64,000 nucleotides of DNA, taken from positions 1 through 64,000 of the IMG/VR virus record IMGVR_UViG_3300030202_002850; one strand, given 5' to 3'. A program made the position numbers and the translations under genes. Positions 1 through 44,811 of this stretch are shown here, one piece after another; the first letter of the stretch is position 1; every line of letters begins with the position of its first letter. The notes beneath the pieces are model-generated. The model did no database searches. It was given only the letters and a program-made list of their open reading frames with translations, and had not been told where the DNA came from. The DNA is from an uncultured virus (IMG/VR IMGVR_UViG_3300030202_002850) (Duplodnaviria; Heunggongvirae; Uroviricota; Caudoviricetes).

Positions 1-236
1 TAAGGATAAACGAAGTATGTAAAATTATTTCCCCATCCCTCTTCCACACAGGATGCATGCGGAAAGATGAAATAACTGAAGCTCTCGTAAACACCATAAA
101 AACCCTAAAGACTGACGGATTTGTCTTACACAGCAAACCAAGGTTAAGATACGCAGTGACAAGGGTTCACCATGAAATGCAGAGCTACGAAAAAACCTAC
201 AGAAATAAAGATACTGGGATTCCAGTACACCATTAA
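1..236 (+). CDS. partial hypothetical protein (5' truncated)
   Basis: Frame 3 is open from the window edge to TAA at 234-236 (read manually). Confidence 0.3.
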   Translation, partial: RINEVCKIISPSLFHTGCMRKDEITEALVNTIKTLKTDGFVLHSKPRLRYAVTRVHHEMQSYEKTYRNKDTGIPVHH

Positions 237-510
237 ATGGATTGAAGAATGCTCAGCCGGGGAAAACCTCGGATGGTGTGACACTACTGCATTAACTATT
301 TCTATAGTATCCAACCAACCAAGCACTGCACTAGCAAATACATTTCTTCACGAAGTAATCCACGCAATAAATTACTCAATGAACATAGACAGTGGAGACG
401 AAGAAAAGCTAACCAATAGACTAGCTAATGGTCTCTGCTCTGTATGGTCTGAAAATCCCAAGGTATGGTCTTGGTGGAGCGGTTTGTTTAAACCCATCAA
501 GAACAAGTAG
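172..510 (+). CDS. small HExxH zincin-like phage protein
   Basis: 112 aa; NTFLHEVIHAI motif with a downstream EE, typical of small phage metallopeptidase-like proteins. Confidence 0.65.
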   Translation: MKCRATKKPTEIKILGFQYTIKWIEECSAGENLGWCDTTALTISIVSNQPSTALANTFLHEVIHAINYSMNIDSGDEEKLTNRLANGLCSVWSENPKVWSWWSGLFKPIKNK

Positions 511-640
511 TGCCAGACTTCTCATTGCTGAGCCTGTAAGCCTGTCTGAGAGCGTTTCTAAGTATCTTGAGAGCTTCTTCGCTCTTTGTGTATTTATCTT
601 CATTCAGTGCATTCTCAAGGCTTTGGATTAGATCAGACAT
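497..640 (-). CDS. small hypothetical protein (47 aa)
   Basis: Manual translation MSDLIQSLENALNEDKYTKSEEALKILRNALRQAYRLSNEKSGTTCS*. Confidence 0.4.
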   Translation of the reverse strand: MSDLIQSLENALNEDKYTKSEEALKILRNALRQAYRLSNEKSGTTCS

Positions 641-964
641 GGGCGAAACAGCCTACACTATTTCAAGGAAGTAAGGGAGACCTTTTTGGGAAATTTTTCA
701 GAAATCTCGAAAAGGCATATATGTAGTGAGAGGAGACATGGGCTGGTCGCCCCGCTCCTCCCCCCTCCCCTTTTGAACACCCCCACAAATCCCCCAATAA
801 AAAGGCAAACAAACAAAGGAAAAAGCAAAACAACAAGAAACCCCAATGAAAACGCTGTTTATTTAATATATATAAATATTAGGCAAAGCTTTTATTTCAT
901 AAGCTCAATATCTGTGCCAGTTATTAAAAGCGAGGGGGGGATATATAGCGAACGGGTAAAGCTT

Positions 965-1555
965 TTTCCATCGGTGGAAATTTTTCACTTAGTGTAAGTT
1001 CACTACGCTTCGTGATTTGAATGATGATTCAAACAATGAATGCCGAACTTGTTGCAGTCTCTGGGACGAAGTAACCCAGACAGTTTATTTAGTAAGAAAG
1101 TGATGGCTAAATCAAGAGACCGGAATGACCCCCGCTTTTGTTAAGTTCGCGATCGGCCAAGAAGTTGGCGACGATGACCACTGACAAATTAAGACTCGAT
1201 CCAGTAGCGCGGATTTACGATAAGGCGGCACACATGCTAAATCGGAATAATTCTACGGAATATGCCTTTCCTTAAAACTGGACAGCGGACATGTCTTGAA
1301 ACGATCCGCACCGTGACCCACTAAGTTTTGGATCTCTTCAAAGCTTGTCGGGTCGAGATCCCCGCCCTTTGGCGGGGGAACCCCTCGACCTACCAAGTTA
1401 ATCTTTAAACGAGTATTGAGTTCACAATTGCCGCCCTTTGGGTCTGCAAGGTCACAACTGAGATCCCGCCATAAAATGGGCTTTTCAATCTCAGGGCGCA
1501 CAAGAAACTAATTGTCGATACTTCCGAGTAAATCCAGCGGACGCAATTGCGCTTT
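965..1555 (+). ncRNA. candidate large structured non-coding RNA
   Basis: No credible ORF; nested helices such as GGATTTAC 1211-1218/GTAAATCC 1528-1535, GGCGGCA 1224-1230/TGCCGCC 1429-1435, GGTCGAG 1351-1357/CTCGACC 1384-1390. Confidence 0.55.
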
Positions 1556-1587
1556 ATAAATGAAGTAAGAGCCTTTTGGCTCCTTTC

Positions 1588-1608
1588 TAATATCTGGCTC
1601 AGATATTA
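1588..1608. repeat. 21-bp palindromic motif, variant
   Basis: TAATATCTGGCTCAGATATTA upstream of the first early gene. Confidence 0.75.
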
Positions 1609-1676
1609 GACAGGAGATAAAAATCTCCACTTCCCCCCAAATGCGGGAAGTTTAACCAAAAAATAATACACACAAA

Positions 1677-2237
1677 ATGAAAAACAAAATCGAAAAGATC
1701 GCAAGTGAAGCCGCAACTGTAAAAGCTGAAAAGCGTATTTCTTCTGAGGAATTACCTGAGCTTGTTACTTGTGAAAAAGTTAAGTTTGAGAATGAGGATG
1801 ATGGGCATATTTCTGGTGATACAGAAACAGTTGAGATCAAAAAACTTCGCACTACAATTCAAGGCGCTGCAAAGTCAATCGCTAAACAAGGCAAAGTTTT
1901 ACATGATGCAATTGTTGAGGCAATTGAGATACACGAAGTTTCAAGAGAAACAATTATTAAATGGGTTGTAGATTGTGGGTATAGTGAATCACGCGCCCGT
2001 GATTTAGTCGCTCCGACTTGGCAAGAGAATCACGGTAAATCTACAAAGGGAAAGAAAAAGGGATCAACAAAAAATAAGGACAAAGTACAAGCGTTGATGA
2101 AATACGCTCGTAGCCTTTGCTCAGATGATGCAGAAGCTTCTAAGACTCTACGCGCTGCTCAACGTCAAATTGATGCCGCGCGAAAAGCTTCTAAGGAAGC
2201 TCCAGAAAACGTAGTTGAATTGGAAAAAGCCGCTTAA
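1677..2237 (+). CDS. hypothetical early protein
   Basis: 186-aa ORF with A-rich leader; ends in the palindrome. Confidence 0.8.
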   Translation: MKNKIEKIASEAATVKAEKRISSEELPELVTCEKVKFENEDDGHISGDTETVEIKKLRTTIQGAAKSIAKQGKVLHDAIVEAIEIHEVSRETIIKWVVDCGYSESRARDLVAPTWQENHGKSTKGKKKGSTKNKDKVQALMKYARSLCSDDAEASKTLRAAQRQIDAARKASKEAPENVVELEKAA

Positions 2238-2255
2238 TAACTGGGCCAGTTATAA
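2235..2255. repeat. 21-bp palindromic motif
   Basis: TAATAACTGGGCCAGTTATAA, begins at a stop codon. Confidence 0.9.
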
Positions 2256-2282
2256 CGAGATAATAATATCTCAGTACAGGAC

Positions 2283-2310
2283 ATCGCTCTTCGGAGCGAT
2301 TTTCCTTTTT
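2283..2310 (+). terminator. intrinsic terminator-like hairpin (or part of a processing structure)
   Basis: ATCGCTC-TTCG-GAGCGAT (C(UUCG)G tetraloop) followed by TTTCCTTTTT. Confidence 0.55.
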
Positions 2311-2320
2311 AGTATCTACT

Positions 2321-2341
2321 CAATAATTGGGCCAGATATTA
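2321..2341. repeat. 21-bp palindromic motif, variant
   Basis: CAATAATTGGGCCAGATATTA. Confidence 0.8.
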
Positions 2342-2378
2342 AAAAGGAGAATCGTTTCTCCTGTAACCATATATAAAA

Positions 2379-2777
2379 ATGAGTAAATTAGAAACATACA
2401 TGAGTGATAAAGACGCAGATATCTACGGAAAATCTATAGTATTGGGATTGATGCGAACTATAGAAATTGAAGACATCCCTGTTGATGTTTTAGAAAAGGC
2501 TAACAAATCTCTCCCTGAGAAAGTTCTTCCCCATGATGGGTCGGTTGCCTTGTTTGGTTGGTTGAAAAATGGAGCTAAGGCAAATCATCCCTTGAACCGC
2601 GAAAGAAGGATCTCAAAGGAAGTGCATCGGTGCATGAATTTATCAGGGCGCAGATTTGCGCTGGTTGATAATGATTTTGATCCAGATTATAAGCGCAAGC
2701 TCGACATTCAAAGCAAAGAAATAACTAGGCTTAATAAAGTTATAGACAGGATTAGGGGTGCAGTAAGTGAGGATTAA
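2379..2777 (+). CDS. hypothetical protein
   Basis: 132-aa ORF. Confidence 0.75.
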   Translation: MSKLETYMSDKDADIYGKSIVLGLMRTIEIEDIPVDVLEKANKSLPEKVLPHDGSVALFGWLKNGAKANHPLNRERRISKEVHRCMNLSGRRFALVDNDFDPDYKRKLDIQSKEITRLNKVIDRIRGAVSED

Positions 2778-2795
2778 TAACTGGGCCAGATATTA
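2775..2795. repeat. 21-bp palindromic motif
   Basis: TAATAACTGGGCCAGATATTA spanning from stop (2775) to the next ATG (2795). Confidence 0.95.
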
Positions 2796-3013
2796 TGAAC
2801 TATATTAACAAACTACAAGAGGACAATGCCGAGCTTCGGAGTGAATTGAAATCGGCCTACAGCATGGCATTAGAGTTAAAAATCTACGCCATGTCTCCAA
2901 AATTCATGGGCGAATCTGGATACGGCGGTAAAACCTACATGTCAAAAGAAGATGTGATTAGGTTTGCTGAGAACATATTAGGAGAGATGCCTTCTGTTGT
3001 GCTAAATGATTAA
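2795..3013 (+). CDS. hypothetical protein
   Basis: 72-aa ORF bracketed by palindromes. Confidence 0.75.
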   Translation: MNYINKLQEDNAELRSELKSAYSMALELKIYAMSPKFMGESGYGGKTYMSKEDVIRFAENILGEMPSVVLND

Positions 3014-3030
3014 TAACTGGGCCAGATATG
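3011..3030. repeat. 21-bp palindromic motif
   Basis: TAATAACTGGGCCAGATATG, stop to ATG. Confidence 0.9.
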
Positions 3031-3150
3031 AAGATACTAAAAACAATAGGGTGGGCTATGCTCACAATAATAATGTACTCAGCCATTAGCTTTATGCTCA
3101 CTGCTTATCTGTTATCAGATACGATTAGTGGGGTGAAGCTATGGCAATAA
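3028..3150 (+). CDS. small membrane protein (40 aa)
   Basis: Manual translation MKILKTIGWAMLTIIMYSAISFMLTAYLLSDTISGVKLWQ*; one hydrophobic helix. Confidence 0.6.
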   Translation: MKILKTIGWAMLTIIMYSAISFMLTAYLLSDTISGVKLWQ

Positions 3151-3253
3151 CAATAACCGAAAGGGGTGCAGTCTTAGCACTGCACCTTCCCTAGTATGTC
3201 GTCATGTGACGCTGTACTAGGGAGGGTTTCTCCCTCTGTAACCATCAAGCATT

Positions 3254-3433
3254 ATGACAAGTGCAAACACAAACAAGCGGAGTCTACCCGTGAATAACGG
3301 TCGGGCTGTTATAAGCAGAAACGTCAAGGCATGGCAAAATCGCAAGGCTGTGACAAGTTTCAATAGAAAATGGGGATCTTTGGCATTGGCCAAGGGCGGG
3401 GCATCACTGGATGCTTTATTTCCTAACCTTTAA
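3254..3433 (+). CDS. small basic hypothetical protein (59 aa)
   Basis: Manual translation MTSANTNKRSLPVNNGRAVISRNVKAWQNRK...DALFPNL*; stop overlaps the palindrome. Confidence 0.6.
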   Translation: MTSANTNKRSLPVNNGRAVISRNVKAWQNRKAVTSFNRKWGSLALAKGGASLDALFPNL

Positions 3434-3451
3434 TAACTGGGCCAGATATTA
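3431..3451. repeat. 21-bp palindromic motif
   Basis: TAATAACTGGGCCAGATATTA, stop to ATG. Confidence 0.95.
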
Positions 3452-3801
3452 TGAGTCGCTATTACGGTAAACCAGTATCAGCACCAGAGGGTTGGTTGTT
3501 CGTTGCTTGGGCTGGAACCAAGGAAATAAAAGAGGATCTCAAAGCATTGGGGTGCAAGTTCTGTTCCTTAATGCCAGACGGTAGAGAGAAGAAGGGTTAT
3601 TACTCTCCTCCTGAGAACCATGCTAAGGCTATGGCTTTGATGCCTGATCCTACAGACATGAAGAAGTGGACTCCAATTAAGGGAGATACCTTTGATGTCA
3701 GGGATGTACTCAAGGACAAGTACGGAGCTAGGTGCATATGGGTTGTGCCTAAGGATAAGCACAGGGAAGCACAAGAATTTGCTGATGCAGTATCAAGCTA
3801 A
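3451..3801 (+). CDS. hypothetical protein with an internal duplication (DUF5710-like)
   Basis: Two similar segments GTKEIKEDLKALG and GDTFDVRDVLKDKYG, each followed by a PE/KD-H-A-A segment. Confidence 0.7.
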   Translation: MSRYYGKPVSAPEGWLFVAWAGTKEIKEDLKALGCKFCSLMPDGREKKGYYSPPENHAKAMALMPDPTDMKKWTPIKGDTFDVRDVLKDKYGARCIWVVPKDKHREAQEFADAVSS

Positions 3802-3819
3802 TAACTGGGCCAGATAAAT
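3799..3819. repeat. 21-bp palindromic motif
   Basis: TAATAACTGGGCCAGATAAAT at a stop codon. Confidence 0.9.
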
Positions 3820-3833
3820 AGAAAGGAAATAAT

Positions 3834-4061
3834 ATGCCACACGGATACAAAGTAATCATTGAAACAGTAAAACAAAATAAAATGACAGATCAAGAATTCA
3901 TAGACGAGGTGTATGAGTTAGCATTTGGAGACAACGCAAGGCACAGACTTACGGAAGAACAAGGCCCGTATGAACATGAAGAGGTTTTGGAAAAGCTAAA
4001 GCAGCAAGACGAATGGTCATACAAATGGGAAGAACAAGAAGGAGTTGGGAGCTTTGAATAA
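3834..4061 (+). CDS. hypothetical acidic protein
   Basis: 75-aa ORF. Confidence 0.65.
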   Translation: MPHGYKVIIETVKQNKMTDQEFIDEVYELAFGDNARHRLTEEQGPYEHEEVLEKLKQQDEWSYKWEEQEGVGSFE

Positions 4062-4062
4062 T

Positions 4063-4374
4063 ATGAGTAGGTTAGCAATAGTTATTGCACTATCGTTATG
4101 CGGCTACGCTAAAGCAGAACCTGAATTATTGGTCAAGCCTAGCGACAAAGAGATACTAATCACGGTTTCTAATTACCCTACAGGAAGGGCTGTCGCATTA
4201 TTAGTTAGCGATAACCTTAATGAATGGACATTGGCAACTGATAATGGCGGGGATTTTTATATCCATTACGCAAGGGAAACAAATGAACCAGTAAGCTGGG
4301 CTGTGCCAGTGAATAGTGACAAAGCTTTCTTCAAGGCTATTGTCTTAACATACAAAACAGAAAGGAACAAATGA
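4063..4374 (+). CDS. secreted protein resembling a Verrucomicrobia C-terminal beta domain
   Basis: Signal peptide MSRLAIVIALSLCGYAKA; pattern LLVSDNLNEW...KAFFKA. Confidence 0.6.
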   Translation: MSRLAIVIALSLCGYAKAEPELLVKPSDKEILITVSNYPTGRAVALLVSDNLNEWTLATDNGGDFYIHYARETNEPVSWAVPVNSDKAFFKAIVLTYKTERNK

Positions 4375-5039
4375 AACGAAGCGTCCACACAACAGGATAC
4401 CCGCAAGGAGCGGGGAAAACCTACCCAATAACTGGGCCAGATATTGATTACGACAAGTACTGCAAGGTTAACACAAAGAACAAGAACATCCTTAAAAAGA
4501 TTAAGTTACAGTTAAAGTTGGCTGAAGAATTAGCATTCACACTATCAGTAAACTTTGTTTGGCCTGAAGCGCACAATGGCAAGGCGATAGCATACAATGT
4601 TGTTGGTGATAGCCAAACCTTTAACGGTAAGAAAGTGCTAAACCGATACTCAAGAGTAGTGCTCACAAGAATAAACAAGGATGGGACAGAAGATGTCCGA
4701 TCCTTTTGTGTGTCTACCTTGCCAAGAGCAATGATAAATTACATCTGCAAACAGAAAGGTATCAACCAAAGTATGCCGAGATTATTCAGGCTCAATGTTT
4801 GGTTTAAGGATGAGGCTCACAGTGTTCAGTTTGTGTCAGGCAAGAGGTCGCAAGCTAGATCACTCAAGGATGCTTTATTCCATGAAGATATACATAAAAT
4901 ACTCCATGAATTAGGAGGCATACCTAAGCCTGTACCGATGGGCCATCGTATTGAGGTGAAGTTAGATCCAGTGCAAGACCCTGATGTAATCGAGAAGCTC
5001 GATGACTTGCAGCGATTAAAGCTTGGGTGGCACTTATAA
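4371..5039 (+). CDS. hypothetical protein
   Basis: 222-aa ORF. Confidence 0.7.
   Translation: MKRSVHTTGYPQGAGKTYPITGPDIDYDKYCKVNTKNKNILKKIKLQLKLAEELAFTLSVNFVWPEAHNGKAIAYNVVGDSQTFNGKKVLNRYSRVVLTRINKDGTEDVRSFCVSTLPRAMINYICKQKGINQSMPRLFRLNVWFKDEAHSVQFVSGKRSQARSLKDALFHEDIHKILHELGGIPKPVPMGHRIEVKLDPVQDPDVIEKLDDLQRLKLGWHL
4426..4446. repeat. 21-bp palindromic motif (intragenic)
   Basis: CAATAACTGGGCCAGATATTG; the outer pair is changed symmetrically to C/G. Confidence 0.9.
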
Positions 5040-5054
5040 CTGGGCCAGATATAA
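5034..5054. repeat. 21-bp palindromic motif
   Basis: TTATAACTGGGCCAGATATAA at a stop codon; symmetric change. Confidence 0.9.
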
Positions 5055-5238
5055 CCCCATACTAATACAGGGATACAAGCTAGGGCTTCAACTCTAGCTA
5101 TTCCATTCGTATATTAACACATATAAATAGTTATTGACATGTGTTATTCAATATGCAATACTCTTTGTTGATGTACGAATGGAGTAGCTCGTAACCATGC
5201 TACCCCGATAAGTAATAATAAAATACACACAAAATATT

Positions 5239-6357
5239 ATGGCAAAACAAACAGCATTAGAAGCGATGACAGTTGATATCGCTACAGCTAAGAGAGCAGC
5301 AGCAGTTTGCTTTCAGAACAAACGCCCCTTCATTGTATGGGGAAAGTACGGATGCGGTAAGTCTCAGATGATTGCTCAACTCGCAGAGAGTATGAGTGCA
5401 ACTCTGTACGACTTCCGAACATCAGATAAGGAGCCGCCCGACTTGGCTGGACTCCCTGTAGCAGATCAAGTGAACCGATGTGTTCAGTGGCTTATTAATC
5501 ACGACACGATTCCTTGGAAGCGATACGATGACAAAGGCAAGCACATCAAACCTAAGTACAAGAGAGCTATTCTCTTCCTCGATGAGTTCGATAGGAGCAT
5601 GGTCGAGGTGATGAACGTGGCTCTTCAGATACTACTAGACCGTAAGGTTAATGGGCATGAGCTAGAGGATAACGTCCTTATATGTGCCGCTGGTAACGGT
5701 GAGTCTGACTCTGGCACTACACCTATCACTGGTGCAGCAGCTACTAGGATGACTCACATTTACATTGATCCAACATTGGATTCATCCATCAAAGGATTCC
5801 AAGAGTACGCAAATAACAAAGGCATGGCTCCTTGGTTGTCATCTTATGTAGGATTCCGCAAGGAAGAGATACAAGGAGATCAGTTCACATTCGTTGAACG
5901 TGCTGAGCCTACGTTTAGAACATTGGAGTGGGCGCATGACTTGATTGAGTCTTGTTATAAGATTGGCACTGACTGGGCAACTAGCCCGTCTGTTATGAAC
6001 TGTCTTGTGTACGGAACAGTAGGGCAAGTGGTTGGTCGTAGCATGATGGCATATCGCAAGATGTGTACTGAGTGTCCTCAACCTGACGACATCTACGATT
6101 CACCCCTTCAGACAAAATTACCTAAGGACGCTGGTGTTTACTACGCTACTGGTGTGGCGTTAGTGCAAGACATTAAACCTAAAGGCAAGTCTGAAGACAT
6201 GAGCAAAACCAAAGCTGCATGTAGATATGTAGGGCGATGGCCTGAGGAACAGCAAGCTACGTTCTTTCGCAGAGCATCTGAAGCCAAGCTGAAAGTTGCG
6301 GCGACACCTGAGTACAAGGCGTGGGAGAAAGAATATAGGTCACTGCAAAGCAAGTAA
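5239..6357 (+). CDS. MoxR-like AAA+ ATPase
   Basis: Walker A GKYGCGKS, Walker B ILFLDEFDR, sensor CAAGN, DLAGLP motif. Confidence 0.9.
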   Translation: MAKQTALEAMTVDIATAKRAAAVCFQNKRPFIVWGKYGCGKSQMIAQLAESMSATLYDFRTSDKEPPDLAGLPVADQVNRCVQWLINHDTIPWKRYDDKGKHIKPKYKRAILFLDEFDRSMVEVMNVALQILLDRKVNGHELEDNVLICAAGNGESDSGTTPITGAAATRMTHIYIDPTLDSSIKGFQEYANNKGMAPWLSSYVGFRKEEIQGDQFTFVERAEPTFRTLEWAHDLIESCYKIGTDWATSPSVMNCLVYGTVGQVVGRSMMAYRKMCTECPQPDDIYDSPLQTKLPKDAGVYYATGVALVQDIKPKGKSEDMSKTKAACRYVGRWPEEQQATFFRRASEAKLKVAATPEYKAWEKEYRSLQSK

Positions 6358-6375
6358 TAACTGGCCCAGATATAA
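6355..6375. repeat. 21-bp palindromic motif
   Basis: TAATAACTGGCCCAGATATAA at a stop codon. Confidence 0.9.
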
Positions 6376-6395
6376 CCCAATAACAATATACGATT

Positions 6396-7343
6396 ATGAA
6401 ATTAGTAACCAAAGACAATGTAATACTAAAGCGGTTCAATGAGAACTGCATGCTGGTTAAGATCGGCATCAAGCTCCCCGGCTCCAAGCAATTGATTGTA
6501 CGGGCGGCTCAAGAGGCAGCGAACACGTTCAAGGCTGACGCTGAATCAATAGACAGTCACATTCGCAAGTTCACAAAGAAAGACTTGTCAGCCGTGCAAG
6601 AGATTGCAACTCAAGCTAGGCAGAAGATTAAGTTCTTCACAAGTACATGGGATGATCATGGATGGCGCATCTGCAAGACAGAGTTCTACCCTGACCTATC
6701 CCGTGAGCTTGAAGAACTGAAGCTCAAGTTTGATGATGCAGTTAGTACCATAGTTAATGATAGGTATGAAGAGATCAAAGCTGACAGTCAACGCCGTGCT
6801 GGTGACTTGTGGGAAGATGTTAGATTCCCTGAGAAGGAAGAGTTCGCTACTCAATTCGACTTCATCATTGAAGTGGACGAGATAAAAGATCCTAAGGATG
6901 TGAAGATCAGTGGCCCTGCTGGACTAATGAAGGAAGTTCAGGAGCAGATGCAAAAGCGCAATGAGACAAAGCTTAAAGAAGCACAAACAGAAACACTTGA
7001 AAGGGTTAAGAGTGTGCTTGCTGATACTGTATCAAGGCTAAAGCATTACGATGCAGGGAAGGCTAAGTTTAATGACGCTAAAAAGAAAGGTGACAAACCT
7101 ACTAAGGTTAGGATATCTGACAGCGTTATTAATAATGTAGTCGAGGTTGGTAAAGTCATTAAGCAGATCAACCTAACTGATGATGAGTCTCTGAACAAAG
7201 CAGCCGACTCGTTAACAGAAGTATTCTCTCGCTTCCAAGGCGAGGACAACATGAAAGAATTAAAAGAGAATTCTAAGAAAAGAAAGGAAGTAATCAAAGC
7301 ATCAGAAGATGTGACCGAGGTTCTTCAATCAATCGAACTGTAA
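6396..7343 (+). CDS. DUF3150-like helical protein
   Basis: 315 aa, all-alpha, W-D-x-G-W-R and FP motifs; lies between a MoxR ATPase and a vWA-peptidase, the usual context. Confidence 0.6.
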   Translation: MKLVTKDNVILKRFNENCMLVKIGIKLPGSKQLIVRAAQEAANTFKADAESIDSHIRKFTKKDLSAVQEIATQARQKIKFFTSTWDDHGWRICKTEFYPDLSRELEELKLKFDDAVSTIVNDRYEEIKADSQRRAGDLWEDVRFPEKEEFATQFDFIIEVDEIKDPKDVKISGPAGLMKEVQEQMQKRNETKLKEAQTETLERVKSVLADTVSRLKHYDAGKAKFNDAKKKGDKPTKVRISDSVINNVVEVGKVIKQINLTDDESLNKAADSLTEVFSRFQGEDNMKELKENSKKRKEVIKASEDVTEVLQSIEL

Positions 7344-7363
7344 CCATATATCAATAACACACA

Positions 7364-8851
7364 ATGAACAAAGTAACAGAAGCAATCAACAACATAACTG
7401 AAGAGGAGTGGGCGGACTTACTCAAAACAGCTAAGTCTAAAGTTAATATTGGACACGACTATATATACACATCTCATCCAATAGGTGTTCCGTTCGTGGC
7501 CAAGTGGCAAGTCATACCTGACCCTTCAGTAGAAACAATGTGTACTGATGGTAAGACTCTGAGGTATAACCCTGAGTTCGCAAACAATCTGTCAGTCAAC
7601 GCAAACAAGTTTGTCATACTCCATGAAGCTGGGCATCTACTGTTTGCTCATCACCTGAGAAGAGAGGATCGCAATCCAGACTTGTGGAATGTTGCAGCAG
7701 ACTTGGCAATGAACAGCCACTTCGTCCCCTACATTAAACAGCTAGGAGTGTGGCATGAATTAGTAAATGATATTGGGATACTGCTACCCCGTGAAGGGAA
7801 GTTCACAAAGTTACCAGAGAACAAGTCAACTGAGTGGTACTACCATGAGTTAGAGATGGAGCTTCACGAACCTCCGCCTCCTCCGGGTGGTAGGCCATGC
7901 GATGACGGAAAGCCTGACGATGATGAGGGTAAAGGCAAGGGTGATAACAACGGAGATCCGAATGAACCTGAAGACTCCAAAGGTCAAGACCAAGACTCTG
8001 GTAAGGGCGAGAGCGGTAGCTCAAGTTCAAATTCTGGAAGCTCTGGCGGCAATGACTCTCCATCACAACCCAGTACCACTAAGTCATTAAGCGAGCGACT
8101 TAAAGATTACCTTGGCGATGAGGGTAAGATTGTTGGTCGTGTCGAGGACTCTGCGACCATGTGTGAAGAGGGCGCTGATGTTGCGGAGAATGAGTACCAA
8201 GAAACAGTATCCGAAGCAGTGGTTCTTATGAAGTCTCAAGGTCATGGCTTTGGCAACGAGTTGGACTTCCTTGAGGACATGCTTACACGAAAGGCAATCA
8301 ACGATGTGTCATGGTTGAAGAGGTTGTTAGTTCAGTATGCTCCGGGTGGACGCAACCATAAGAGAGTTAACAAGCGTTACTCATCTGGCGGTATCATCTT
8401 CCCTAAGAATGAAACCAAGGGTAGGAGTCACGGCCTTATCATGGTTGATACCTCTGGGTCTATGGGTAATGCAGAGTGTGACGAGGCATTTGTTCAGATG
8501 AACAAGATCATTCAAGAGTTCCCTCACACCAAGATAACAATGGTGCAGTGCGACACTGACATACATGAGGAATCTATACGAGAGTTCAGTCGAAGCGACT
8601 TACCATTACGAGTGCCTCGCAAATGGTACGGACGGGGAGGCACTGACATGGAGCCAGTATTAAAGTACGCTAAGGAAAACAAATACAAGTTTGATTGGGC
8701 GGTGTGCATCACTGACATGGAATGGGATTGGAAGAACTGTACTGATAGCGGAATAGTTACCAAGTTTGTTGCAGTTAATCCATACAAGCCGTTAGATATC
8801 AACATGCCGCAACGAGGGTACAGTTATGAAGAGGTTTATGTGAATGTATAA
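7364..8851 (+). CDS. DUF2201-type metallopeptidase-vWA protein
   Basis: TMCTDG, LHEAGH, WNVAADLAMN; acidic linker; MIDAS VDTSGSM, GRGGTD, ITD. Confidence 0.9.
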   Translation: MNKVTEAINNITEEEWADLLKTAKSKVNIGHDYIYTSHPIGVPFVAKWQVIPDPSVETMCTDGKTLRYNPEFANNLSVNANKFVILHEAGHLLFAHHLRREDRNPDLWNVAADLAMNSHFVPYIKQLGVWHELVNDIGILLPREGKFTKLPENKSTEWYYHELEMELHEPPPPPGGRPCDDGKPDDDEGKGKGDNNGDPNEPEDSKGQDQDSGKGESGSSSSNSGSSGGNDSPSQPSTTKSLSERLKDYLGDEGKIVGRVEDSATMCEEGADVAENEYQETVSEAVVLMKSQGHGFGNELDFLEDMLTRKAINDVSWLKRLLVQYAPGGRNHKRVNKRYSSGGIIFPKNETKGRSHGLIMVDTSGSMGNAECDEAFVQMNKIIQEFPHTKITMVQCDTDIHEESIREFSRSDLPLRVPRKWYGRGGTDMEPVLKYAKENKYKFDWAVCITDMEWDWKNCTDSGIVTKFVAVNPYKPLDINMPQRGYSYEEVYVNV

Positions 8852-8866
8852 CTGGGCCAGATATTA
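8846..8866. repeat. 21-bp palindromic motif
   Basis: GTATAACTGGGCCAGATATTA at a stop codon. Confidence 0.9.
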
Positions 8867-11720: not shown

Positions 11721-12539
11721 ATGAAAAACACAAATGAAAATAAAGTTAAACTAAAGTTAACTAAGGACTTGCTTACAGCGAGTTCTAAAATGACAGACAA
11801 CCAAGCTAGGTTCTTGGTAGACACCTATTACCAAATGCAAGACGCGAGGATTCGCTCCGCTGCACAAGTGAGGGGGTTGAAAGAAGGCAATGAGCCTTCA
11901 CATGTGATGAGTTGGATTGAAGATATTAATATCCAGCTTGAGGATAACATTAAAAAGGCGTTACATAAGTACGCTCTTGGTAATCCTGTTGGTCAGTGGT
12001 CTCTAGGAATAACTGGTATTGGCCCAGTGATATCCGCTGGACTTCTTGCTTACATAGACATTAAGCAAGCCCCTACTGTTGGACACATATGGCGCTACGC
12101 TGGACAAGACCCAACATGTAAATGGAATAAAGGAGAGAAGCGACCTTGGAACGCTAACCTCAAGACACTATGCTGGAAGATGGGCGAGTGTTTTGTGAAG
12201 GTTAAGAATAATGATTCCGATTTCTACGGAAAAATATTTGATGAACGTAAGATTTATGAGTCGGCTAACAACGAGAAGCTTATGTATAAATCCCAAGCTG
12301 ATGAGGGAGCTAAGCGCGTAGGAAAAACTACTGAAGCTTACAAGTCTTATAGTGTAGGTAAGTTACCCGCTGGTCATATCCACGCAAGAGCAAAGCGTTA
12401 CGCTGTGAAGTTGTTCCTTTCACATTGGCATGATATTGCTTACAGAAACCACTACAAGTCTGCACCCCCATTCCCGTATCCCATTGCACATATGGGACAC
12501 GCACACCAGATACCAGTACCAAATACAATTGCTGCATAA
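11721..12539 (+). CDS. tasA: TIGR-associated Nop-domain protein, TasA-like (IS110 C-terminal/Nop homolog with no nuclease domain)
   Basis: N-terminal helices (YYQMQDARIRSAAQ), then ITGIGPVISAGLLAYID, IWRYAG, PWNANLKTLCW, FYGKIFDERK, GHIHARAKRYAVKLFLSH; no DEDD RuvC, HNH or IS110 catalytic SG loop; dual-repeat array 290 bp downstream. Confidence 0.88.
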   Translation: MKNTNENKVKLKLTKDLLTASSKMTDNQARFLVDTYYQMQDARIRSAAQVRGLKEGNEPSHVMSWIEDINIQLEDNIKKALHKYALGNPVGQWSLGITGIGPVISAGLLAYIDIKQAPTVGHIWRYAGQDPTCKWNKGEKRPWNANLKTLCWKMGECFVKVKNNDSDFYGKIFDERKIYESANNEKLMYKSQADEGAKRVGKTTEAYKSYSVGKLPAGHIHARAKRYAVKLFLSHWHDIAYRNHYKSAPPFPYPIAHMGHAHQIPVPNTIAA

Positions 12540-16877: not shown

Positions 16878-17254
16878 GTATCAACTCAAGACAGAAGGGG
16901 GCTAGGTCTGAACGTGAATTTGCATCAATGCTAAAGGAAGCTGGATGGGATACATGTACAATGAGAGGTTGCCAGAATGCTGGCCGAGATGCTGGAGGCA
17001 CTGCTGCTCCTGATATTATATGCGAAGACCTGAGCGCTTTTCATTTTGAAGTAAAGAACAGGCAAAAGGGAGCGACAAGAGATGGGTATGAGCAAGCGGC
17101 TAGGGATGCAAAGCCGGGGCAAATGCCAGTGTATGGATTTAAAAAGAACAATGCGCCTTGGTTAGTGTGCTTGAGCTTTGATGACTTTATGAAACTAACC
17201 AGAGAACTAGACGAAAGTATAAGAAAGAATGACGGAAACATTACCGAACAGTGA
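16865..17254 (+). CDS. Hjc-like Holliday junction resolvase
   Basis: INSRQKGARSERE, PDI, HFEVK motifs. Confidence 0.85.
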   Translation: MGFMSINSRQKGARSEREFASMLKEAGWDTCTMRGCQNAGRDAGGTAAPDIICEDLSAFHFEVKNRQKGATRDGYEQAARDAKPGQMPVYGFKKNNAPWLVCLSFDDFMKLTRELDESIRKNDGNITEQ

Positions 17255-18557
17255 AGACATGGAGAAAGCCCTATTGGGCTGCATGATATTGGAACCCGAT
17301 GAGGTTGTTCCAAATATTATTAGTGAACACAAGAACATAGCTGAGTACTTCTTGTCCATTAGGACAAAGGTTGTGTTTAACACTATCATGGAATTGTTAT
17401 CAACGGGTAGGGCGATAGATGAAAACACAATAATCGATTCTCTTAAAAAGAAAGATAAGCTTGATAGTATAGGAGGGATTATATTTGTTTGCTCGTTAGC
17501 AGACCAAAGCCCTTCAGCAAAAAACTATTCTTATTACGCTGATATATTGAGGGATTATTATGTAAGAAGGAGTTTAATACTTATGAGCAAGGACGCTCTG
17601 CATGATGCACAAAAAGCAGACAGCGCTGAGATCGCACTTGAAAACACACAAAAGAAAGTGATGAGTATTGCTCAAGATCAAGCGCAAAAAGGTGAACGTC
17701 CTACTTCGGTGATGGTAACAGACTACCTACAAAAATTACAGGACAGCATAGACAACCCTCAAGAAACTTATGGGCTGATGACAGGCTGGGCTGATATTGA
17801 TAATACGGTTAAAGGATTGCAGCCAGCTAACATAGTAGTCATAGCAGCAAGGCCAAGCGTTGGTAAGACATCACTTGCAATGAACATGGCTAGGCATGTT
17901 GCTGTAGACCAGCGTAAGCCTGTTGGTGTTTTCAGCTTAGAGATGAGCGCTGACGCACTGATACAGCGCATGATTCATACTCAAGCAAGATGCCCAAAAG
18001 ATGACTGGGCTGGAAGGATTGACGACCTCAGTAAAGCCGCCTCTGATATTGCTAATGCCCCACTACATATTGATGATAGATCTGGGCTATCTGTGCAGCA
18101 GATTGCTGCTTCAGCAAGACGCATGATGGCGCAACATTCCATTGAGCTACTGGTAGTGGACTACTTGCAGCTTATAAGAAGCACAAAAACAAAAGGCACA
18201 AGGAACGATGAAGTCACTGAAATTTCTAGTGGCTGCAAAGCATTAGCTAAAGACTTAAACATACCGATACTACTGCTAAGCCAGATCAATAGGTCTGCTG
18301 AGATCGCGGAAAGAAAACCTAGATGTTCTGACCTGAGGGACTCTGGATCTATAGAACAAGATGCAGATCAAATATGGTTTATTTATAAAGACCTCGAACA
18401 CAAGCCAGATGAGAACGCATCAGGAGTTCCAGTGTGGATCTCGATTGATAAGAACAGGGACGGAGTTAGTGGTGTAAGATTTCCTTTCGTCTTCTTAAAG
18501 GACTACACTAGATTTGAGTCAGGGACAATTGCAGAACCATTAAGTGGTAATGCGTAA
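17229..18557 (+). CDS. dnaB: replicative DNA helicase
   Basis: N-terminal DnaB domain; AARPSVGKT, FSLEM, VVDYLQL, LSQINR, DLRDSGSIEQDAD, KNRDG. Confidence 0.96.
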   Translation: MTETLPNSEDMEKALLGCMILEPDEVVPNIISEHKNIAEYFLSIRTKVVFNTIMELLSTGRAIDENTIIDSLKKKDKLDSIGGIIFVCSLADQSPSAKNYSYYADILRDYYVRRSLILMSKDALHDAQKADSAEIALENTQKKVMSIAQDQAQKGERPTSVMVTDYLQKLQDSIDNPQETYGLMTGWADIDNTVKGLQPANIVVIAARPSVGKTSLAMNMARHVAVDQRKPVGVFSLEMSADALIQRMIHTQARCPKDDWAGRIDDLSKAASDIANAPLHIDDRSGLSVQQIAASARRMMAQHSIELLVVDYLQLIRSTKTKGTRNDEVTEISSGCKALAKDLNIPILLLSQINRSAEIAERKPRCSDLRDSGSIEQDADQIWFIYKDLEHKPDENASGVPVWISIDKNRDGVSGVRFPFVFLKDYTRFESGTIAEPLSGNA

Positions 18558-18919: not shown

Positions 18920-19288
18920 ATGATCGGGGAGATTAGGGCTTTGTCTCTGACTCCCCTTTTTATGTCTCAAATTTTAAACATGGTTAAACATTTTGATAAG
19001 TTACCTCCATACTTGTGTCGAGTTCTGGCAAGGAAAGGAAGGAAAGCTTTAACAAATCAAGACATCTCTAATGTTAGCGGGCTAACAGTTAAGAGAGTTG
19101 GTGAGATATCAAGATTGAAAAGCTGGGGGTCTGTGCCTTTAGCTCAGATTAATGCATTCGCAAAAGCATGCGGAGTTGATTTGATTAATCAATCAAACGT
19201 TAGGAAGTATTTAAAACGAGGGCCAAAGATGGCTCACGTTAACAAGGCCAAAAACAAATCATACCTAATAAGGCTTATGGGTTTGTAA
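18920..19288 (+). CDS. HTH (XRE-like) DNA-binding protein
   Basis: LTNQDISNVSGLTVKRVGEISR helix-turn-helix pattern. Confidence 0.55.
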   Translation: MIGEIRALSLTPLFMSQILNMVKHFDKLPPYLCRVLARKGRKALTNQDISNVSGLTVKRVGEISRLKSWGSVPLAQINAFAKACGVDLINQSNVRKYLKRGPKMAHVNKAKNKSYLIRLMGL

Positions 19289-19306
19289 TATCTGGCCCAG
19301 ATAATA
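19286..19306. repeat. 21-bp palindromic motif
   Basis: TAATATCTGGCCCAGATAATA spanning from stop to the recombinase ATG. Confidence 0.9.
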
Positions 19307-20181
19307 TGAGAAAGAAAAAGACAAAAAACCTACCACAATTAATTAACGAGTACCTATCTTTCAAGATGGTAACTAAATCTAAAAACACTATAAACAATAT
19401 GGAGACAACACTTCTTCATTACGCGCAGTTTTGTTTAGACAGGAAGCGTCACCCCCTAAAAGAAGAAACAGTTTTTAAGTGGGTATCCAACCTTAGATTT
19501 GGAAGCAAGAAGAGAAAAGGTAATACAATAAACAACTATATATCTAGGCTTAAAACATTTCTTAGTTATCTAGTTAATGTCGGGTACATTGATTCAAACC
19601 CTGCCAAGATGGTTGACCTACTACCTCCAGAACACAAAGAGATAGTTGGGTTTAACCACAATGATGCTAAAATACTTATTCAGTATGCTGGTAAGCACAG
19701 GCACAGTAACTATTGGGTTCCGATGATACTACTTGGATGGCATTATGGTATGAGAATATCTGATTGCTCTCACATAAAACATGAAGAGGTGGACATGAAC
19801 CATAGACAAATTAAGTTTTTACCAAAGAAGCAAAGAAGAAGATACATAAGACTGCCTCTTCACCCCGACATTTACGATGCATTTAATAACGCTGAGCTAG
19901 GAGAAGGGGAGTATATGTTTCCAGATGCTGTCAGAAAGTACGAAGTTAAGACTTTAAGTTGTGAGTTTAAATCAATTATCAAGTCAGCCAAACTCCCAGA
20001 AAGCTATACATTCCATTGCTTGCGTCATGGAGCAGCTACTAACATGCTAAAGATGGGTATAAGAATGACAACCATTACCGAGATCATTGGTTGGTCTAGC
20101 CCTACAATGCTGTATAAATATATGGATACAGACCAAGAAGAAATGGATAAGGTTTTAGATATGAAATCTATTGCTGTTTAG
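19306..20181 (+). CDS. tyrosine recombinase/integrase (Xer-like size)
   Basis: SAM-like N-domain ending NPA; GMRISD (R), K, FHCLRH (HxxR), IIGWSS (W at the H/W position), YKY. Confidence 0.92.
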   Translation: MRKKKTKNLPQLINEYLSFKMVTKSKNTINNMETTLLHYAQFCLDRKRHPLKEETVFKWVSNLRFGSKKRKGNTINNYISRLKTFLSYLVNVGYIDSNPAKMVDLLPPEHKEIVGFNHNDAKILIQYAGKHRHSNYWVPMILLGWHYGMRISDCSHIKHEEVDMNHRQIKFLPKKQRRRYIRLPLHPDIYDAFNNAELGEGEYMFPDAVRKYEVKTLSCEFKSIIKSAKLPESYTFHCLRHGAATNMLKMGIRMTTITEIIGWSSPTMLYKYMDTDQEEMDKVLDMKSIAV

Positions 20182-35853: not shown

Positions 35854-35873
35854 AATATCTGGCCCAGTTATTT
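35853..35873. repeat. 21-bp palindromic motif
   Basis: Minus strand TAA-ATAACTGGGCCAGATATT-ATG, stop to start. Confidence 0.92.
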
Positions 35874-44769: not shown

Positions 44770-44800
44770 AGTATAGCAAAAAAGGGGGCAGTCTTGACAA
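44770..44800 (-). promoter_or_regulatory. putative promoter TTGTCA-N19-TATACT (extended -10), 9 nt before ATG
   Basis: Minus strand TGCTATACTATATTTGCTATG. Confidence 0.45.
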
Positions 44801-44811
44801 CTGCCCCCTTT
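44778..44811 (-). terminator. intrinsic terminator after the major capsid gene
   Basis: Minus strand AAAGGGGGCAGT-TGTCAAG-ACTGCCCCCTTTTTT. Confidence 0.85.

What the first reader, a model, noticed from the sequence alone, without database searches (positions are those of the whole stretch)
965..1555. About 590-nt ORF-free region with extensive nested base pairing: candidate novel large phage ncRNA
Seen helices: TTTCCA/TGGAAA (~965-980); CGAACTTG 1044-1051/TAAGTTCG 1142-1149 enclosing CTGGG/CCCAG and ATTTAGT/GCTAAAT; GCCAA-GAAG-TTGGC 1156-1169; AGCGC 1206-1210/GCGCT 1549-1553; GGATTTAC 1211-1218/GTAAATCC 1528-1535; GGCGGCA 1224-1230/TGCCGCC 1429-1435; GGTCGAG/CTCGACC enclosing CCCCGCC/GGCGGGG; CTGAGAT/ATCTCAG. 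The long-range pairs are properly nested and G-U pairs favour the + strand. I recognised no tmRNA, RNase P or intron hallmarks. Inference: a multi-domain RNA at the head of the early transcript.
Basis: partly seen in the sequence, partly recalled or inferred. Interest (0 to 1): 0.7.

Follow-up and report, generated by a model that had tools for sequence, protein, structure and literature searches.

The report
Large folded noncoding phage RNA
A gene-free stretch of about 660 bases in an uncultured marine phage is preserved by evolution as a many-hairpin RNA that matches no catalogued RNA family; what it does (control of the early genes or help in starting DNA copying) is still an inference.

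Summary
The ORF-free stretch is real. Comparison with 4 other full-length phage lineages, plus one partial contig, shows a conserved structured element of about 665 nt (window ~926-1590, + strand). It is bounded by two copies of a 21-nt motif that punctuates the phage's genes, and it ends in an invariant hairpin with a U-rich tail.

Three covariance models were built on window sequence and aligned to relatives. Paired cells were 95.6-98.3%, against 25-56% when partners are slid. Both sides had changed in 14 of 29, 11 of 24 and 8 of 32 pairs.

His three long-range pairs are not: one has a different, local partner, one is broken in a relative, and one is untestable.

No Rfam family, tRNA, tmRNA or conserved ORF was found. 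Folding z-scores are modest (-1.8 to -4.2) and similar on both strands.

A central strand can pair with either of two direct repeats, giving near-isoenergetic conformers in all lineages.

Transcription, strand and function are not shown. My best reading is a self-terminated early leader or riboregulator with a conformational switch. Rivals are an origin-type transcript (Ceduovirus PE1-T-like) and a trans-acting ncRNA. I class it as a new RNA family of a known general kind.

The parts
640..905 (.). Conserved non-coding region upstream of the unit. It holds a nearly invariant block at about 675-735, a GC hairpin plus C-run at about 741-775, and an A/T-rich stretch at about 790-905 (GC 0.27 in 801-900).
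   Evidence: Alignment of 8 sequences. blastn aligns window 92-995 to the most distant lineage at 69% identity. Composition.
906..926 (+). First copy in the genome array of the 21-nt gene-punctuation motif (variant of TAATAACTGGGCCAGATATTA). Candidate promoter or operator.
   Evidence: 19 sites in G000, 12 of them in 906-8866. Conserved at this place in all lineages.
926..1590 (+). The whole proposed non-coding RNA unit, about 665 nt. The ends are inferred, not mapped.
   Evidence: Bounded by motif copies and a terminal hairpin. No conserved ORF. Covariation. GC 0.45-0.57 in 1101-1500 against a genome value of 0.41.
934..1005 (+). G7 run (934-940) followed by a sequence-conserved 5' part with little supported pairing.
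   Evidence: alignment: conserved letters, non-compensatory changes in the hairpin.
995..1051 (+). Helix a:b (995-1001 with 1045-1051) enclosing hairpin B. B has an outer stem 1009-1013/1036-1040, an inner stem 1016-1022/1027-1033 and loop GAUG.
   Evidence: Model R3. In the L009 group the inner stem of B has 5 of 7 pairs changed on both sides with the loop kept (by my reading of the alignment), and a:b becomes AACC/GGUU by my reading of the L009 fold.
1044..1149 (+).
   Evidence: a:b -42.4 against b:c -46.0 kcal/mol in the window. L003 has lost part of strand a and gained a 47-nt insert carrying a new partner.
1060..1080 (+). Hairpin C (1060-1065/1075-1080) with a conserved 9-nt purine-rich loop.
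   Evidence: 6 pairs, 5 changed on both sides, 100% of cells paired in 4 sequences.
1087..1112 (+). Hairpin D (1087-1093/1106-1112).
   Evidence: 7 pairs, 2 changed on both sides, 95.8% paired.
1156..1169 (+). Hairpin J (GCCAA-GAAG-TTGGC).
   Evidence: Compensatory GTCAA/TTGAC in L003. Other lineages have a hairpin of different sequence at the same place.
1170..1275 (+). Lineage-variable middle part, largely absent in the L009 group.
   Evidence: alignment. RNA lengths are 663 nt (window), 702 nt (L003), 597 nt (L010) and 569 nt (L009).
1280..1309 (+). Two interleaved helices: S1 (1280-1284/1292-1296) and E2 (1285-1289/1305-1309). They form a small pseudoknot or mutually exclusive hairpins.
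   Evidence: E2: 3 of 5 pairs changed on both sides. (S1: 92% paired, A-U/U-A swap). The L005 fold pairs GGCCA with UGGCU at the same place, which I read as a C-G at the swapped position.
1315..1354 (+). Conformer A: a long hairpin in which strand 1 plus the 5' half of hairpin M (1315-1332) pairs with strand 2 (1337-1354).
   Evidence: The core GACCC/GGGUC never varies, so it is uninformative. The stem of M changes compensatorily between window and L003.
1344..1397 (+). Conformer B: strand 2 (1344-1357) pairs with strand 3 (1384-1397) and encloses hairpin F (1360-1366/1371-1377). Strands 1 and 3 are direct repeats.
   Evidence: 12 pairs, 6 changed on both sides, 98.2% paired; F has 7 pairs, 2 changed. 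A and B lie within 0.2-4.3 kcal/mol in 5 sequences.
1458..1553 (+). 3' domain: hairpin G (1458-1467/1478-1494) and a three-helix stack, H1 1495-1499/1549-1553, H2 1510-1514/1544-1548 and H3 1523-1526/1538-1541.
   Evidence: Model R1: 96.5% of cells paired and 14 of 29 pairs changed on both sides. G has 6 of 7 and H2 has 4 of 5 pairs changed.
1569..1588 (+). Invariant terminal hairpin (1569-1573/1578-1582) with a U-rich tail, terminator-like.
   Evidence: flagged on both strands. Invariant in all lineages.
1588..1608 (+). Second copy of the punctuation motif. It is followed by a 5' hairpin and the 186-aa gene (1677-2237).

Best explanation
Window ~926-1590 (+) is a non-coding gene-sized unit of an uncultured, integrase-carrying marine phage.

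Shown: natural selection keeps base pairing, not sequence and not a reading frame, in at least a dozen local helices. These form a 5' hairpin domain, a central domain and a 3' domain. The unit is bounded by the first two copies of the phage's 21-nt gene-punctuation motif and ends in an invariant hairpin with a U-rich tail.

Inferred: it is transcribed rightward with the neighbouring genes as an RNA of about 665 nt, and most transcripts stop at their own terminal hairpin.

Mechanism I think most likely (inference): it acts in cis as a folded leader or riboregulator at the head of the motif-punctuated early array. At two places a central strand can pair with either of two direct-repeat strands (1315-1332 / 1337-1357 / 1384-1399, and 995-1001 / 1044-1051 / 1142-1149). 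This gives alternative conformers of nearly equal energy. Which conformer forms during transcription would decide whether the RNA ends as a terminated non-coding product or lets polymerase read on into the early genes. A partner bound to the conserved, unpaired 5' part or to the purine-rich loops could help set that choice. The logic is that of the untranslated P4 leader (CI RNA with seqA/seqC) or the lambda PR' leader.
For: Structure conserved where sequence is not:
- blastn aligns only islands of 996-1550 to the L009 lineage.
- Structure models built on window sequence still find one + strand hit at the syntenic place in every full-length relative. R1 scores 56.9-70.9 bits and R2 scores 37.2-59.3 bits.
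- R1 and R3 gave 0 hits in 30,240 bases of 10 unrelated loci.

Pair counts:
- 96.5% of cells paired, 14 of 29 pairs changed on both sides.
- 98.3% paired, 11 of 24 changed.
- 95.6% paired, 8 of 32 changed.
- 0 of 500 shuffles reach the observed percentage paired, and slid controls give 25-56%.

Other support:
- No conserved ORF. No Rfam, tRNA or tmRNA match.
- GC is raised to 0.45-0.57 against a genome value of 0.41.
- Motif copies sit at both ends in all lineages. The terminal hairpin is invariant and was flagged as terminator-like.
- Toggle: conformers A and B differ by 0.2-4.3 kcal/mol in 5 sequences. Helix B, including its outer extension, covaries. That extension uses the same nucleotides as hairpin M of conformer A, which also changes compensatorily between window and L003.
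- The phage has an integrase (19306-20181), and Pfam finds no repressor.
- P4 logic is cited from a passage in PMC4825925.
Against: - No transcription data; no RNA holder was listed.
- The strand is not settled. z-scores are similar on both strands, and G-U against A-C is only 9 to 4 cells.
- Only 4 distinct full-length lineages besides the window, plus one partial contig, were available.
- The alignments used for counting were fitted to the model structure, so they lean towards it.
- The core of conformer A never varies, so it is untested.
- Near-equal energies of alternative folds are common in RNAs of this size, and I ran no control for that.
- No physical link between the toggles (1315-1399) and the terminal hairpin 170 nt downstream is shown.
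- The U tail is weak (CTTTCT).
- If the second motif copy is a promoter, read-through control of the next gene would be unnecessary.
- 665 nt is far larger than known leader switches.
- No complementarity of 11 nt or more to the rest of the genome beyond chance: 30 matches against 25.2 +/- 6.9 in shuffles.
Confidence: 0.4

Rival explanations
1. Origin-type transcript. The unit is the phage's replication origin region, and its folded RNA starts or activates DNA replication. The model is the non-coding PE1-T transcript of lactococcal Ceduovirus (c2) origins. ColE1 RNA II, recalled, also has pre-primer folding that chooses between alternative pairings.
For: [quoted passage not shown]
- Here the unit lies between the first two motif copies. 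It has no conserved ORF and a lineage-variable middle.
- A conserved 270-bp non-coding region lies just upstream, with a stretch at 27% GC and a C-run.
- Pfam and PHROGs find a DnaB-type helicase, an SSB-like protein and recombination genes, but no initiator, primase or DNA polymerase.
- The three-strand toggle resembles the alternative pairings of RNA II (recalled).
Against: - The RNA ends in an invariant terminator-like hairpin, which releases a transcript rather than leaving a primer.
- The A/T-rich stretch is upstream of the transcript, not downstream.
- No DnaA-box-like sites occur in 600-1700: 13 in the window against 17.9 expected, none of them in the region.
- The unit is not at the divergence point of early and late modules, which lies about 3.4 kb away.
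- Cumulative skew shows nothing at the region.
Confidence: 0.25
2. Stand-alone trans-acting non-coding RNA. It has its own promoter (motif copy 1) and terminator and acts on host or phage factors as a decoy, sponge or scaffold. In the broad sense it would be like other large phage-associated RNAs of unknown function.
For: - The cassette layout of motif, unit, terminal hairpin and next motif is the same punctuation that the protein genes have.
- Loops are conserved and purine-rich, and the 5' part is conserved and unpaired.
- Many hairpins are under selection.
- Large ornate phage-associated RNAs exist (GOLLD, ROOL; abstract of PMC12286853 in the listing).
Against: - No similarity to any Rfam family, including the large ones.
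- No repeated binding motif was shown to be enriched.
- No target was found in the phage genome.
- The host is unknown, so host targets cannot be tested.
- Promoter activity of the motif is not shown, and no phage RNA polymerase was found.
Confidence: 0.2
3. DNA-level element. The hairpins matter in single-stranded or cruciform DNA (replication, packaging or recombination), or the functional strand is the minus strand.
For: - Compensatory change is equally expected for DNA hairpins.
- Minus-strand folds are as far from shuffles as plus-strand folds.
- The neighbouring motif is itself a near-palindrome.
Against: - G-U cells outnumber A-C cells 9 to 4, and S1 adds 3 more G-U cells.
- Interleaved and alternative pairings and conserved loops are typical of RNA.
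- All neighbouring genes are on the + strand.
- No direct-repeat iterons beyond short two-copy families.
Confidence: 0.08
4. Unrecognised or decayed protein-coding sequence, or helices that arise by chance.
For: An 82-aa ORF exists on the minus strand (1253-1501). The folding z-score of the window alone is only -2.12.
Against: - No frame is conserved, and indels are not in multiples of three.
- Covariation statistics are far above the shuffled and slid controls.
Confidence: 0.02

Closest known systems
Origin region of Lactococcus Ceduovirus phages (c2, bIL67, 923 types) with the non-coding PE1-T transcript (PMC7150918, passages read)
   Same: An ORF-free, RBS-free stretch lies between the first two early-array control signals. 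It is made as a non-coding transcript whose length and structure matter. Its sequence varies between lineages while its position is kept.
   Different: No sequence or structure homology was tested or seen. Here the flanking motif is not shown to be a promoter. The unit is not between divergent early and late modules. It ends in a terminator-like hairpin. Replication function is untested.
Satellite phage P4 immunity leader: CI RNA with seqA and seqC (PMC4825925, one passage read)
   Same: An untranslated early leader of a temperate element in which a central segment is complementary to two flanking repeated segments. Pairing choices control premature termination.
   Different: CI is a small processed RNA and the P4 leader is shorter. 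No Rfam hit to related families. Processing, trans action and termination control are not shown here.
ColE1 RNA II pre-primer (recalled, no call)
   Same: A structured transcript about 550 nt long whose function depends on a choice between alternative pairings of three segments.
   Different: RNA II ends by RNase H cleavage at the origin, not at a terminator hairpin. It is a plasmid system, and no antisense RNA I equivalent was seen.
Large ornate phage-associated RNAs GOLLD and ROOL (Rfam; PMC12286853 abstract in the search listing)
   Same: Length of 600-800 nt, many covarying helices, association with phages, unknown biochemical role.
   Different: No match to their Rfam models at E up to 10 in the region or to any family at gathering score in the window. 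This RNA is a chain of local hairpins with toggles, and is known from only five lineages of one phage clade.
Candidate structured RNAs of IMG/VR phages (PMC10690425; passages read)
   Same: Found by covariation in intergenic regions of uncultured phages, including the collection that holds this contig.
   Different: Those candidates are 29-151 nt long. My search of the supplements that could be searched found none of four sequence strings or two sample numbers. The large alignment files could not be searched, so single hairpins of this RNA may be listed there.
For the flanking 21-nt motif: mycobacteriophage L5 stoperators (PMC9283540, passages read) and T7-type phage promoters (recalled)
   Same: About 20 near-identical copies in short intergenic spaces, touching stop and start codons. 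By my reading, orientation mostly follows the direction of transcription. The phage carries an integrase.
   Different: The L5 sites are 13-bp asymmetric monomer sites, while this is a 21-bp near-palindrome. No repressor and no phage RNA polymerase was identified.

Membership tests
Any Rfam 15 family (including GOLLD, ROOL, HEARO, tmRNA, RNase P, group I/II introns, 6S) | Match to the family covariance model at its gathering score | tested here: not met
   0 matches in the 64-kb window. In 600-1750 there were only 5 chance-level matches, with best E 0.11 at 20.2 bits against a gathering score of 34. Nothing in the RNA region of relatives L003, L009 or L010.
tRNA / tmRNA | ARAGORN-detectable cloverleaf or tRNA-like domain with a tag ORF | tested here: not met
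   0 genes in the window and in 6 related loci.
Structured non-coding RNA (generic) | Base pairs kept by compensatory substitutions across homologues, above controls | tested here: met
   95.6-98.3% of cells paired, and 14 of 29, 11 of 24 and 8 of 32 pairs changed on both sides. 0 of 500 shuffles reach the observed percentage paired or the covariation score. Slid controls give 25-56%. Caveat: the alignments were fitted to the model, and there are only 4-5 distinct rows.
Structured non-coding RNA (generic) | No conserved reading frame | tested here: met
   (36 frames tested against 3 relatives). Indels of 8, 47 and about 95 nt.
Structured non-coding RNA (generic) | Transcribed, on the stated strand | not testable with these tools
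   No RNA holder was listed. Strand clues are weak.
Ceduovirus-type origin with PE1-T transcript | Non-coding stretch flanked by the first two early promoters | tested here: inconclusive
   It is flanked by the first two copies of the array motif, but promoter activity of the motif is not shown.
Ceduovirus-type origin with PE1-T transcript | Lies between divergent early and late modules | tested here: not met
   The strand switch is at about G000 69,040-69,176. Plus-strand genes lie between it and the unit.
Ceduovirus-type origin with PE1-T transcript | Supports plasmid replication without phage proteins | not testable with these tools
   Bench test only.
P4-type RNA immunity leader | Central segment complementary to two flanking repeated segments in one untranslated leader | tested here: met
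   Strands 1315-1332, 1337-1357 and 1384-1399. A second triad lies at 995-1001, 1044-1051 and 1142-1149.
P4-type RNA immunity leader | Processing to a small stable antisense RNA that causes premature termination in lysogens | not testable with these tools
   Needs RNA data from a lysogen.
Intrinsic terminator (3' end of the unit) | GC-rich hairpin followed directly by a U tract | tested here: inconclusive
   The scan flags 1569-1582 (5 pairs, 4 GC, tail CTTTCTAATA) and also a minus-strand reading. The tail is only moderately U-rich.
L5-type stoperator / operator array (flanking motif) | Many near-identical sites in short intergenic spaces of a temperate phage, oriented with transcription | tested here: inconclusive
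   19 sites, mostly intergenic, and an integrase is present. No repressor was identified, and the site is a near-palindrome.
T7-type phage promoter (flanking motif) | Phage-encoded single-subunit RNA polymerase | tested here: not met
   No RNA polymerase family was found in the ORFs scanned with Pfam and PHROGs (39 and 10 proteins; 16 and 15 proteins). Not every small ORF was scanned. The two giant ORFs have no PDB sequence match, so a hidden polymerase is not excluded.

The most novel reading that the evidence does not exclude
This is a new class of large (about 0.66 kb) bistable phage RNA. It is the first cassette of a promoter-punctuated early array, and its two three-strand toggles let RNA alone make the early decision of an integrase-carrying marine phage that has no recognisable protein repressor, initiator or primase. 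That decision would be either RNA-only immunity/attenuation or RNA-triggered start of replication.
Probability: 0.15. Interest if true: 0.85.

Novelty: new variant of a known kind. Interest (0 to 1): 0.62.

Why it matters
Large structured RNAs with strong comparative support are rare, and few are known from phages. This one sits at the control point of an otherwise almost unannotated marine phage lineage. That lineage's terminase is only about 27% identical to any phage record held here, and it has two giant orphan proteins. The RNA appears to contain conserved alternative folds. If its role were shown, whether leader switch, origin transcript or trans-acting RNA, it would add a new RNA family. 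It would also give a handle on how such phages time early expression or start replication without recognisable protein regulators. If it proves to be a plain leader, it is still a well-supported annotation for a gap of about 1 kb.

Tried and rejected
- **Known RNA families.** Rfam at gathering score and at E up to 10 on the window, and at E up to 1 on the relatives, gave nothing. ARAGORN gave nothing.
- **Coding.** Rejected.
Not supported.
- **A hairpin at 966-979.** Present, but changes in relatives are not compensatory.
- **Pairing of the RNA 5' end with 1129-1139 or with the upstream C-run, and the perfect 10-nt inverted match 711-720/1260-1269.** Not conserved in L009 or L010 by inspection, so treated as chance.
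- **Antisense targets in the phage genome.** 30 matches of 11 nt against 25.2 +/- 6.9 in shuffles.
- **DnaA boxes.** None in the region.
- **Skew.** Follows transcription only.
- **More homologues.**
  - The phage GenBank collection gave no match.
  - Four DNA-pattern scans of viral contigs returned the same contigs, plus one chance hit, L029.
  - Species genomes gave no relative of the neighbouring protein. Nine pattern hits there appear to be chance: no model hit in any, and blastn checked only on L038.
  - The DNA of five further protein homologues at 63-68% identity (P0002-P0006) could not be fetched.
- **Expression.** No RNA holder was listed.
- **Model R3.** It did not reach the L009 group at E 0.5. 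With filters off on the 651-nt region only, it gave 7.5 bits, E 0.05.
- **R3 alignment of L003.** It is distorted by the 47-nt insert, so helices 1 and 2 are undercounted for that row.
- **Supplements of PMC10690425.** No hit in the files that could be searched. The alignment files were too large.
- **Earlier notes of this scan.** None on this genome or on look-alike sequence.
Full report
**Setting.** The window is bases 1-64000 of a 71,220-bp IMG/VR virus record. Its two ends share 9 nt, so the contig is probably a circular permutation.

The phage has:
- a DnaB-type helicase (17229-18557);
- an AAA_24 ATPase and PD-(D/E)XK nucleases;
- a tyrosine integrase (19306-20181);
- a large terminase (51357-52829);
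- two giant ORFs of 3160 aa and about 2600 aa with no Pfam or PDB-sequence match. The first has no PHROG match either. The second matches only two unknown-function PHROGs at its C-terminal end.

Pfam and PHROGs find no RNA polymerase, DNA polymerase, primase or repressor. The terminase is at most about 27-29% identical to anything in the phage collection. The region itself has no DNA match there. Related contigs come from marine metagenomes.

**Observation.** Between the 112-aa gene (172-510) and the 186-aa gene (1677-2237) there is about 1.1 kb without a credible gene. A 47-aa minus-strand ORF at 497-640 overlaps a terminator-like hairpin and is doubtful.

In 926-1590 the longest frame is 82 aa on the minus strand. 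No frame is conserved: tblastn of 36 frames against three relatives hits all frames alike, and only where the DNA is conserved.

The folding energy of 965-1555 is -171.8 kcal/mol against -156.6 +/- 7.2 for shuffles (z -2.12). The minus strand gives z -1.42. The homologous stretches give -4.18/-3.44 (L010) and -1.76/-2.31 (L009). So thermodynamics alone is modest and does not tell the strand.

**Homologues.** The downstream protein has 7 homologues at 60-94% identity. Scans with it and with DNA patterns gave DNA for five lineages:

| Lineage | Identity to the window over the non-coding region |
|---|---|
| Window | reference |
| L003 (= L008 = L012) | 92% |
| L010 | 67% |
| L005 (partial, contig ends near window 1300) | 82% to L010 |
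| L009 / L014 / L015 | 60% |

Synteny is kept. blastn aligns window 92-995 to the most distant lineage at 69% identity. Within 996-1550 it aligns only islands (1350-1390 and 1522-1624). Indels of 8, 47 and about 95 nt occur. Further scans found no more relatives.

**Covariation.** I built three covariance models, two from window plus L003 and one from the window alone, with structures I specified. I let Infernal align the relatives.

| Model | Region | Bits in relatives | Cells paired | Pairs changed on both sides | Slid controls |
|---|---|---|---|---|---|
| R1 | 1455-1590 | 56.9-70.9 | 96.5% | 14 of 29 | 31-41% |
| R2 | 1276-1402 | 37.2-59.3 | 98.3% | 11 of 24 | 32-56% |
| R3 | 990-1115 | 72-104 (L010, L005, L003) | 95.6% | 8 of 32 | 25-51% |

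- R1 found one + strand hit in each of the 5 other sources, and 0 of 500 shuffles were as good.
- Hairpin C alone has 5 of 6 pairs changed.
- R3 reaches the L009 group only weakly (7.5 bits, E 0.05 in 651 nt, filters off). The aligned hairpin B there keeps its GAUG loop while 5 of 7 inner pairs differ on both sides.
- R1 and R3 gave no hit in 10 unrelated loci.

Caveats: there are 4-5 distinct rows, the alignments are fitted to the model, and the L003 row of R3 is distorted by its insert.

**Anatomy (window coordinates).**
- G7 run at 934-940.
- A sequence-conserved 5' part, mostly unpaired, to about 1005.
- Hairpin B: 1009-1040.
- Hairpin C: 1060-1080.
- Hairpin D: 1087-1112.
- Hairpin J: 1156-1169.
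- A variable middle: 1170-1275.
- Interleaved helices S1 and E2: 1280-1309.
- The three-strand region: 1315-1399, with hairpin F at 1360-1377.
- Hairpin G: 1458-1494.
- A three-helix stack, H1-H3: 1495-1553.
- An invariant hairpin with a U-rich tail: 1569-1588.

The local ones (CTGGG/CCCAG, GCCAA/TTGGC, GGTCGAG/CTCGACC, CCCCGCC/GGCGGGG, CTGAGAT/ATCTCAG and, partly, ATTTAGT/GCTAAAT) are supported. The long-range ones are not:
- GCGCT 1549-1553 pairs with 1495-1499.
- GTAAATCC is in the loop of H3 and carries an uncompensated change in L003.
- GGCGGCA/TGCCGCC never varies where it can be compared.

**Alternative folds.** Strand 2 (1337-1357) can pair with strand 1 (1315-1332, conformer A) or with strand 3 (1384-1399, conformer B). 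Strands 1 and 3 are direct repeats in each lineage.

Helix B, including its outer extension, covaries: 6 of 12 pairs. That extension uses the nucleotides that form hairpin M in conformer A, and M also changes compensatorily between window and L003.

Constrained folding puts A and B close in energy:

| Sequence | Conformer A (kcal/mol) | Conformer B (kcal/mol) |
|---|---|---|
| Window | -36.3 | -37.1 |
| L003 | -39.7 | -39.5 |
| L014 | -37.3 | -38.1 |
| L009 | -36.9 | -39.8 |
| L010 | -29.5 | -33.8 |

The invariant core of A is uninformative. A second triad (995-1001, 1044-1051, 1142-1149) behaves alike. In L003, loss of part of the first strand coincides with a 47-nt insert that brings a new partner. 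I ran no null model for how often such near-degeneracy arises, so the switch is an inference.

**Context.** A 21-nt near-palindrome, exact at 2775-2795, occurs at 19 sites in the genome. The degenerate 15-mer gives 37 strand-matches in the window against 0.9 expected; the site list is.

- Twelve sites lie in 906-8866, between small + strand genes, often touching the stop codon of one gene and the ATG of the next.
- The first two copies (906-926, 1588-1608) bracket the ORF-free unit in every lineage.
- The upstream + strand genes (G000 69176 to window 510) have none.
- Most copies form only a weak, mismatched hairpin, so recognition as DNA, as a promoter or an operator, is more likely than recognition as an RNA hairpin.
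- The closest parallels are L5 stoperators (PMC9283540, passages) and T7-type promoters (recalled). I cannot decide between them.

**Strand.** The + strand is favoured by the neighbouring genes, by 9 G-U against 4 A-C cells in the modelled helices, and by 3 more G-U cells in S1. This is weak.

**Function.**
- What is shown is selection for RNA-type pairing in a gene-sized, motif-bounded, non-coding unit.
- My preferred mechanism is a self-terminated leader or riboregulator whose conformers gate read-through (0.4).
The passage in PMC7150918 describes a non-coding stretch between the first two early promoters, with a PE1-T transcript needed for replication.
- Against the origin reading stand the terminal hairpin, the absence of DnaA boxes and the location.
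- A trans-acting RNA (0.2) and a DNA-level element (0.08) remain open.
- The P4 logic is cited from a passage in PMC4825925. ColE1 RNA II, the lambda PR' leader and HK022 put are recalled.

**Novelty.** There is no Rfam match. A survey of IMG/VR intergenic regions reported candidates of only 29-151 nt (PMC10690425, passages). The supplements I could search held none of my query strings, but the alignment files could not be searched. My literature check was limited to the searches. I class this as a new RNA family of a known general kind: a phage early non-coding structured transcript.

Noticed in passing
window 2775-2795 (exact copy); 19 sites in G000, e.g. 906-926, 1588-1608, 2235-2255, 2321-2341, 3431-3451, 19286-19306, 35853-35873, 44813-44833: A 21-nt near-palindrome (TAATAACTGGGCCAGATATTA) punctuates the genome. 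It usually lies between genes, touching the stop codon of one and the ATG of the next, and by my reading it is mostly oriented with transcription. It is either a promoter for an unidentified polymerase or a stoperator-like operator array.
   Followed up: partly
window 2256-2320: Between two adjacent motif copies lies a mini-unit. It has a hairpin and a canonical terminator (2283-2300 plus a T-rich tail) and no ORF. It may be a small RNA of about 55-60 nt.
   Followed up: no
window 20178-29660 (-) and 57844 to G000 65652 (-): Two giant ORFs (3160 aa and about 2600 aa) have no Pfam or PDB-sequence match. The first has no PHROG match. The second hits only two unknown-function PHROGs at its C-terminal end.
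   Followed up: partly
G000 69176-69841 (+) = L025 6177-6842: A 221-aa protein combines a sigma-70 region-4 helix-turn-helix (Pfam E 3e-8) with an SSB OB-fold (E 3e-13). It is a candidate DNA-binding regulator for the motif.
   Followed up: no
window 640-905: The non-coding DNA upstream of the unit is as conserved as the coding flanks. It has a nearly invariant block of about 55 nt (675-735), a GC hairpin with a C-run (741-775), and a 27%-GC A-rich stretch (801-900). Its function is unknown; it could be a promoter region, an origin or a genome end.
   Followed up: partly
L003 3275-3439 against window 990-1115: Relative L003 has lost 8 nt of the upstream partner strand (window 998-1005). It has gained a 47-nt insert after window 1049 that carries a new copy of the same partner sequence. 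This looks like a structural compensation by rearrangement.
   Followed up: partly
window 44775-44808 (-): A strong canonical terminator (13-bp GC-rich stem plus a U6 tract) lies directly after a motif copy and before the next minus-strand gene.
   Followed up: no
window 1-9 and G000 71212-71220: The contig ends share 9 nt (TAAGGATAA). The record is classed linear but is probably circularly permuted.
   Followed up: no
window 11721-12539 (+): A 272-aa protein matches a PHROG annotated as transposase (E 9e-48) inside the replication and recombination module.
   Followed up: no
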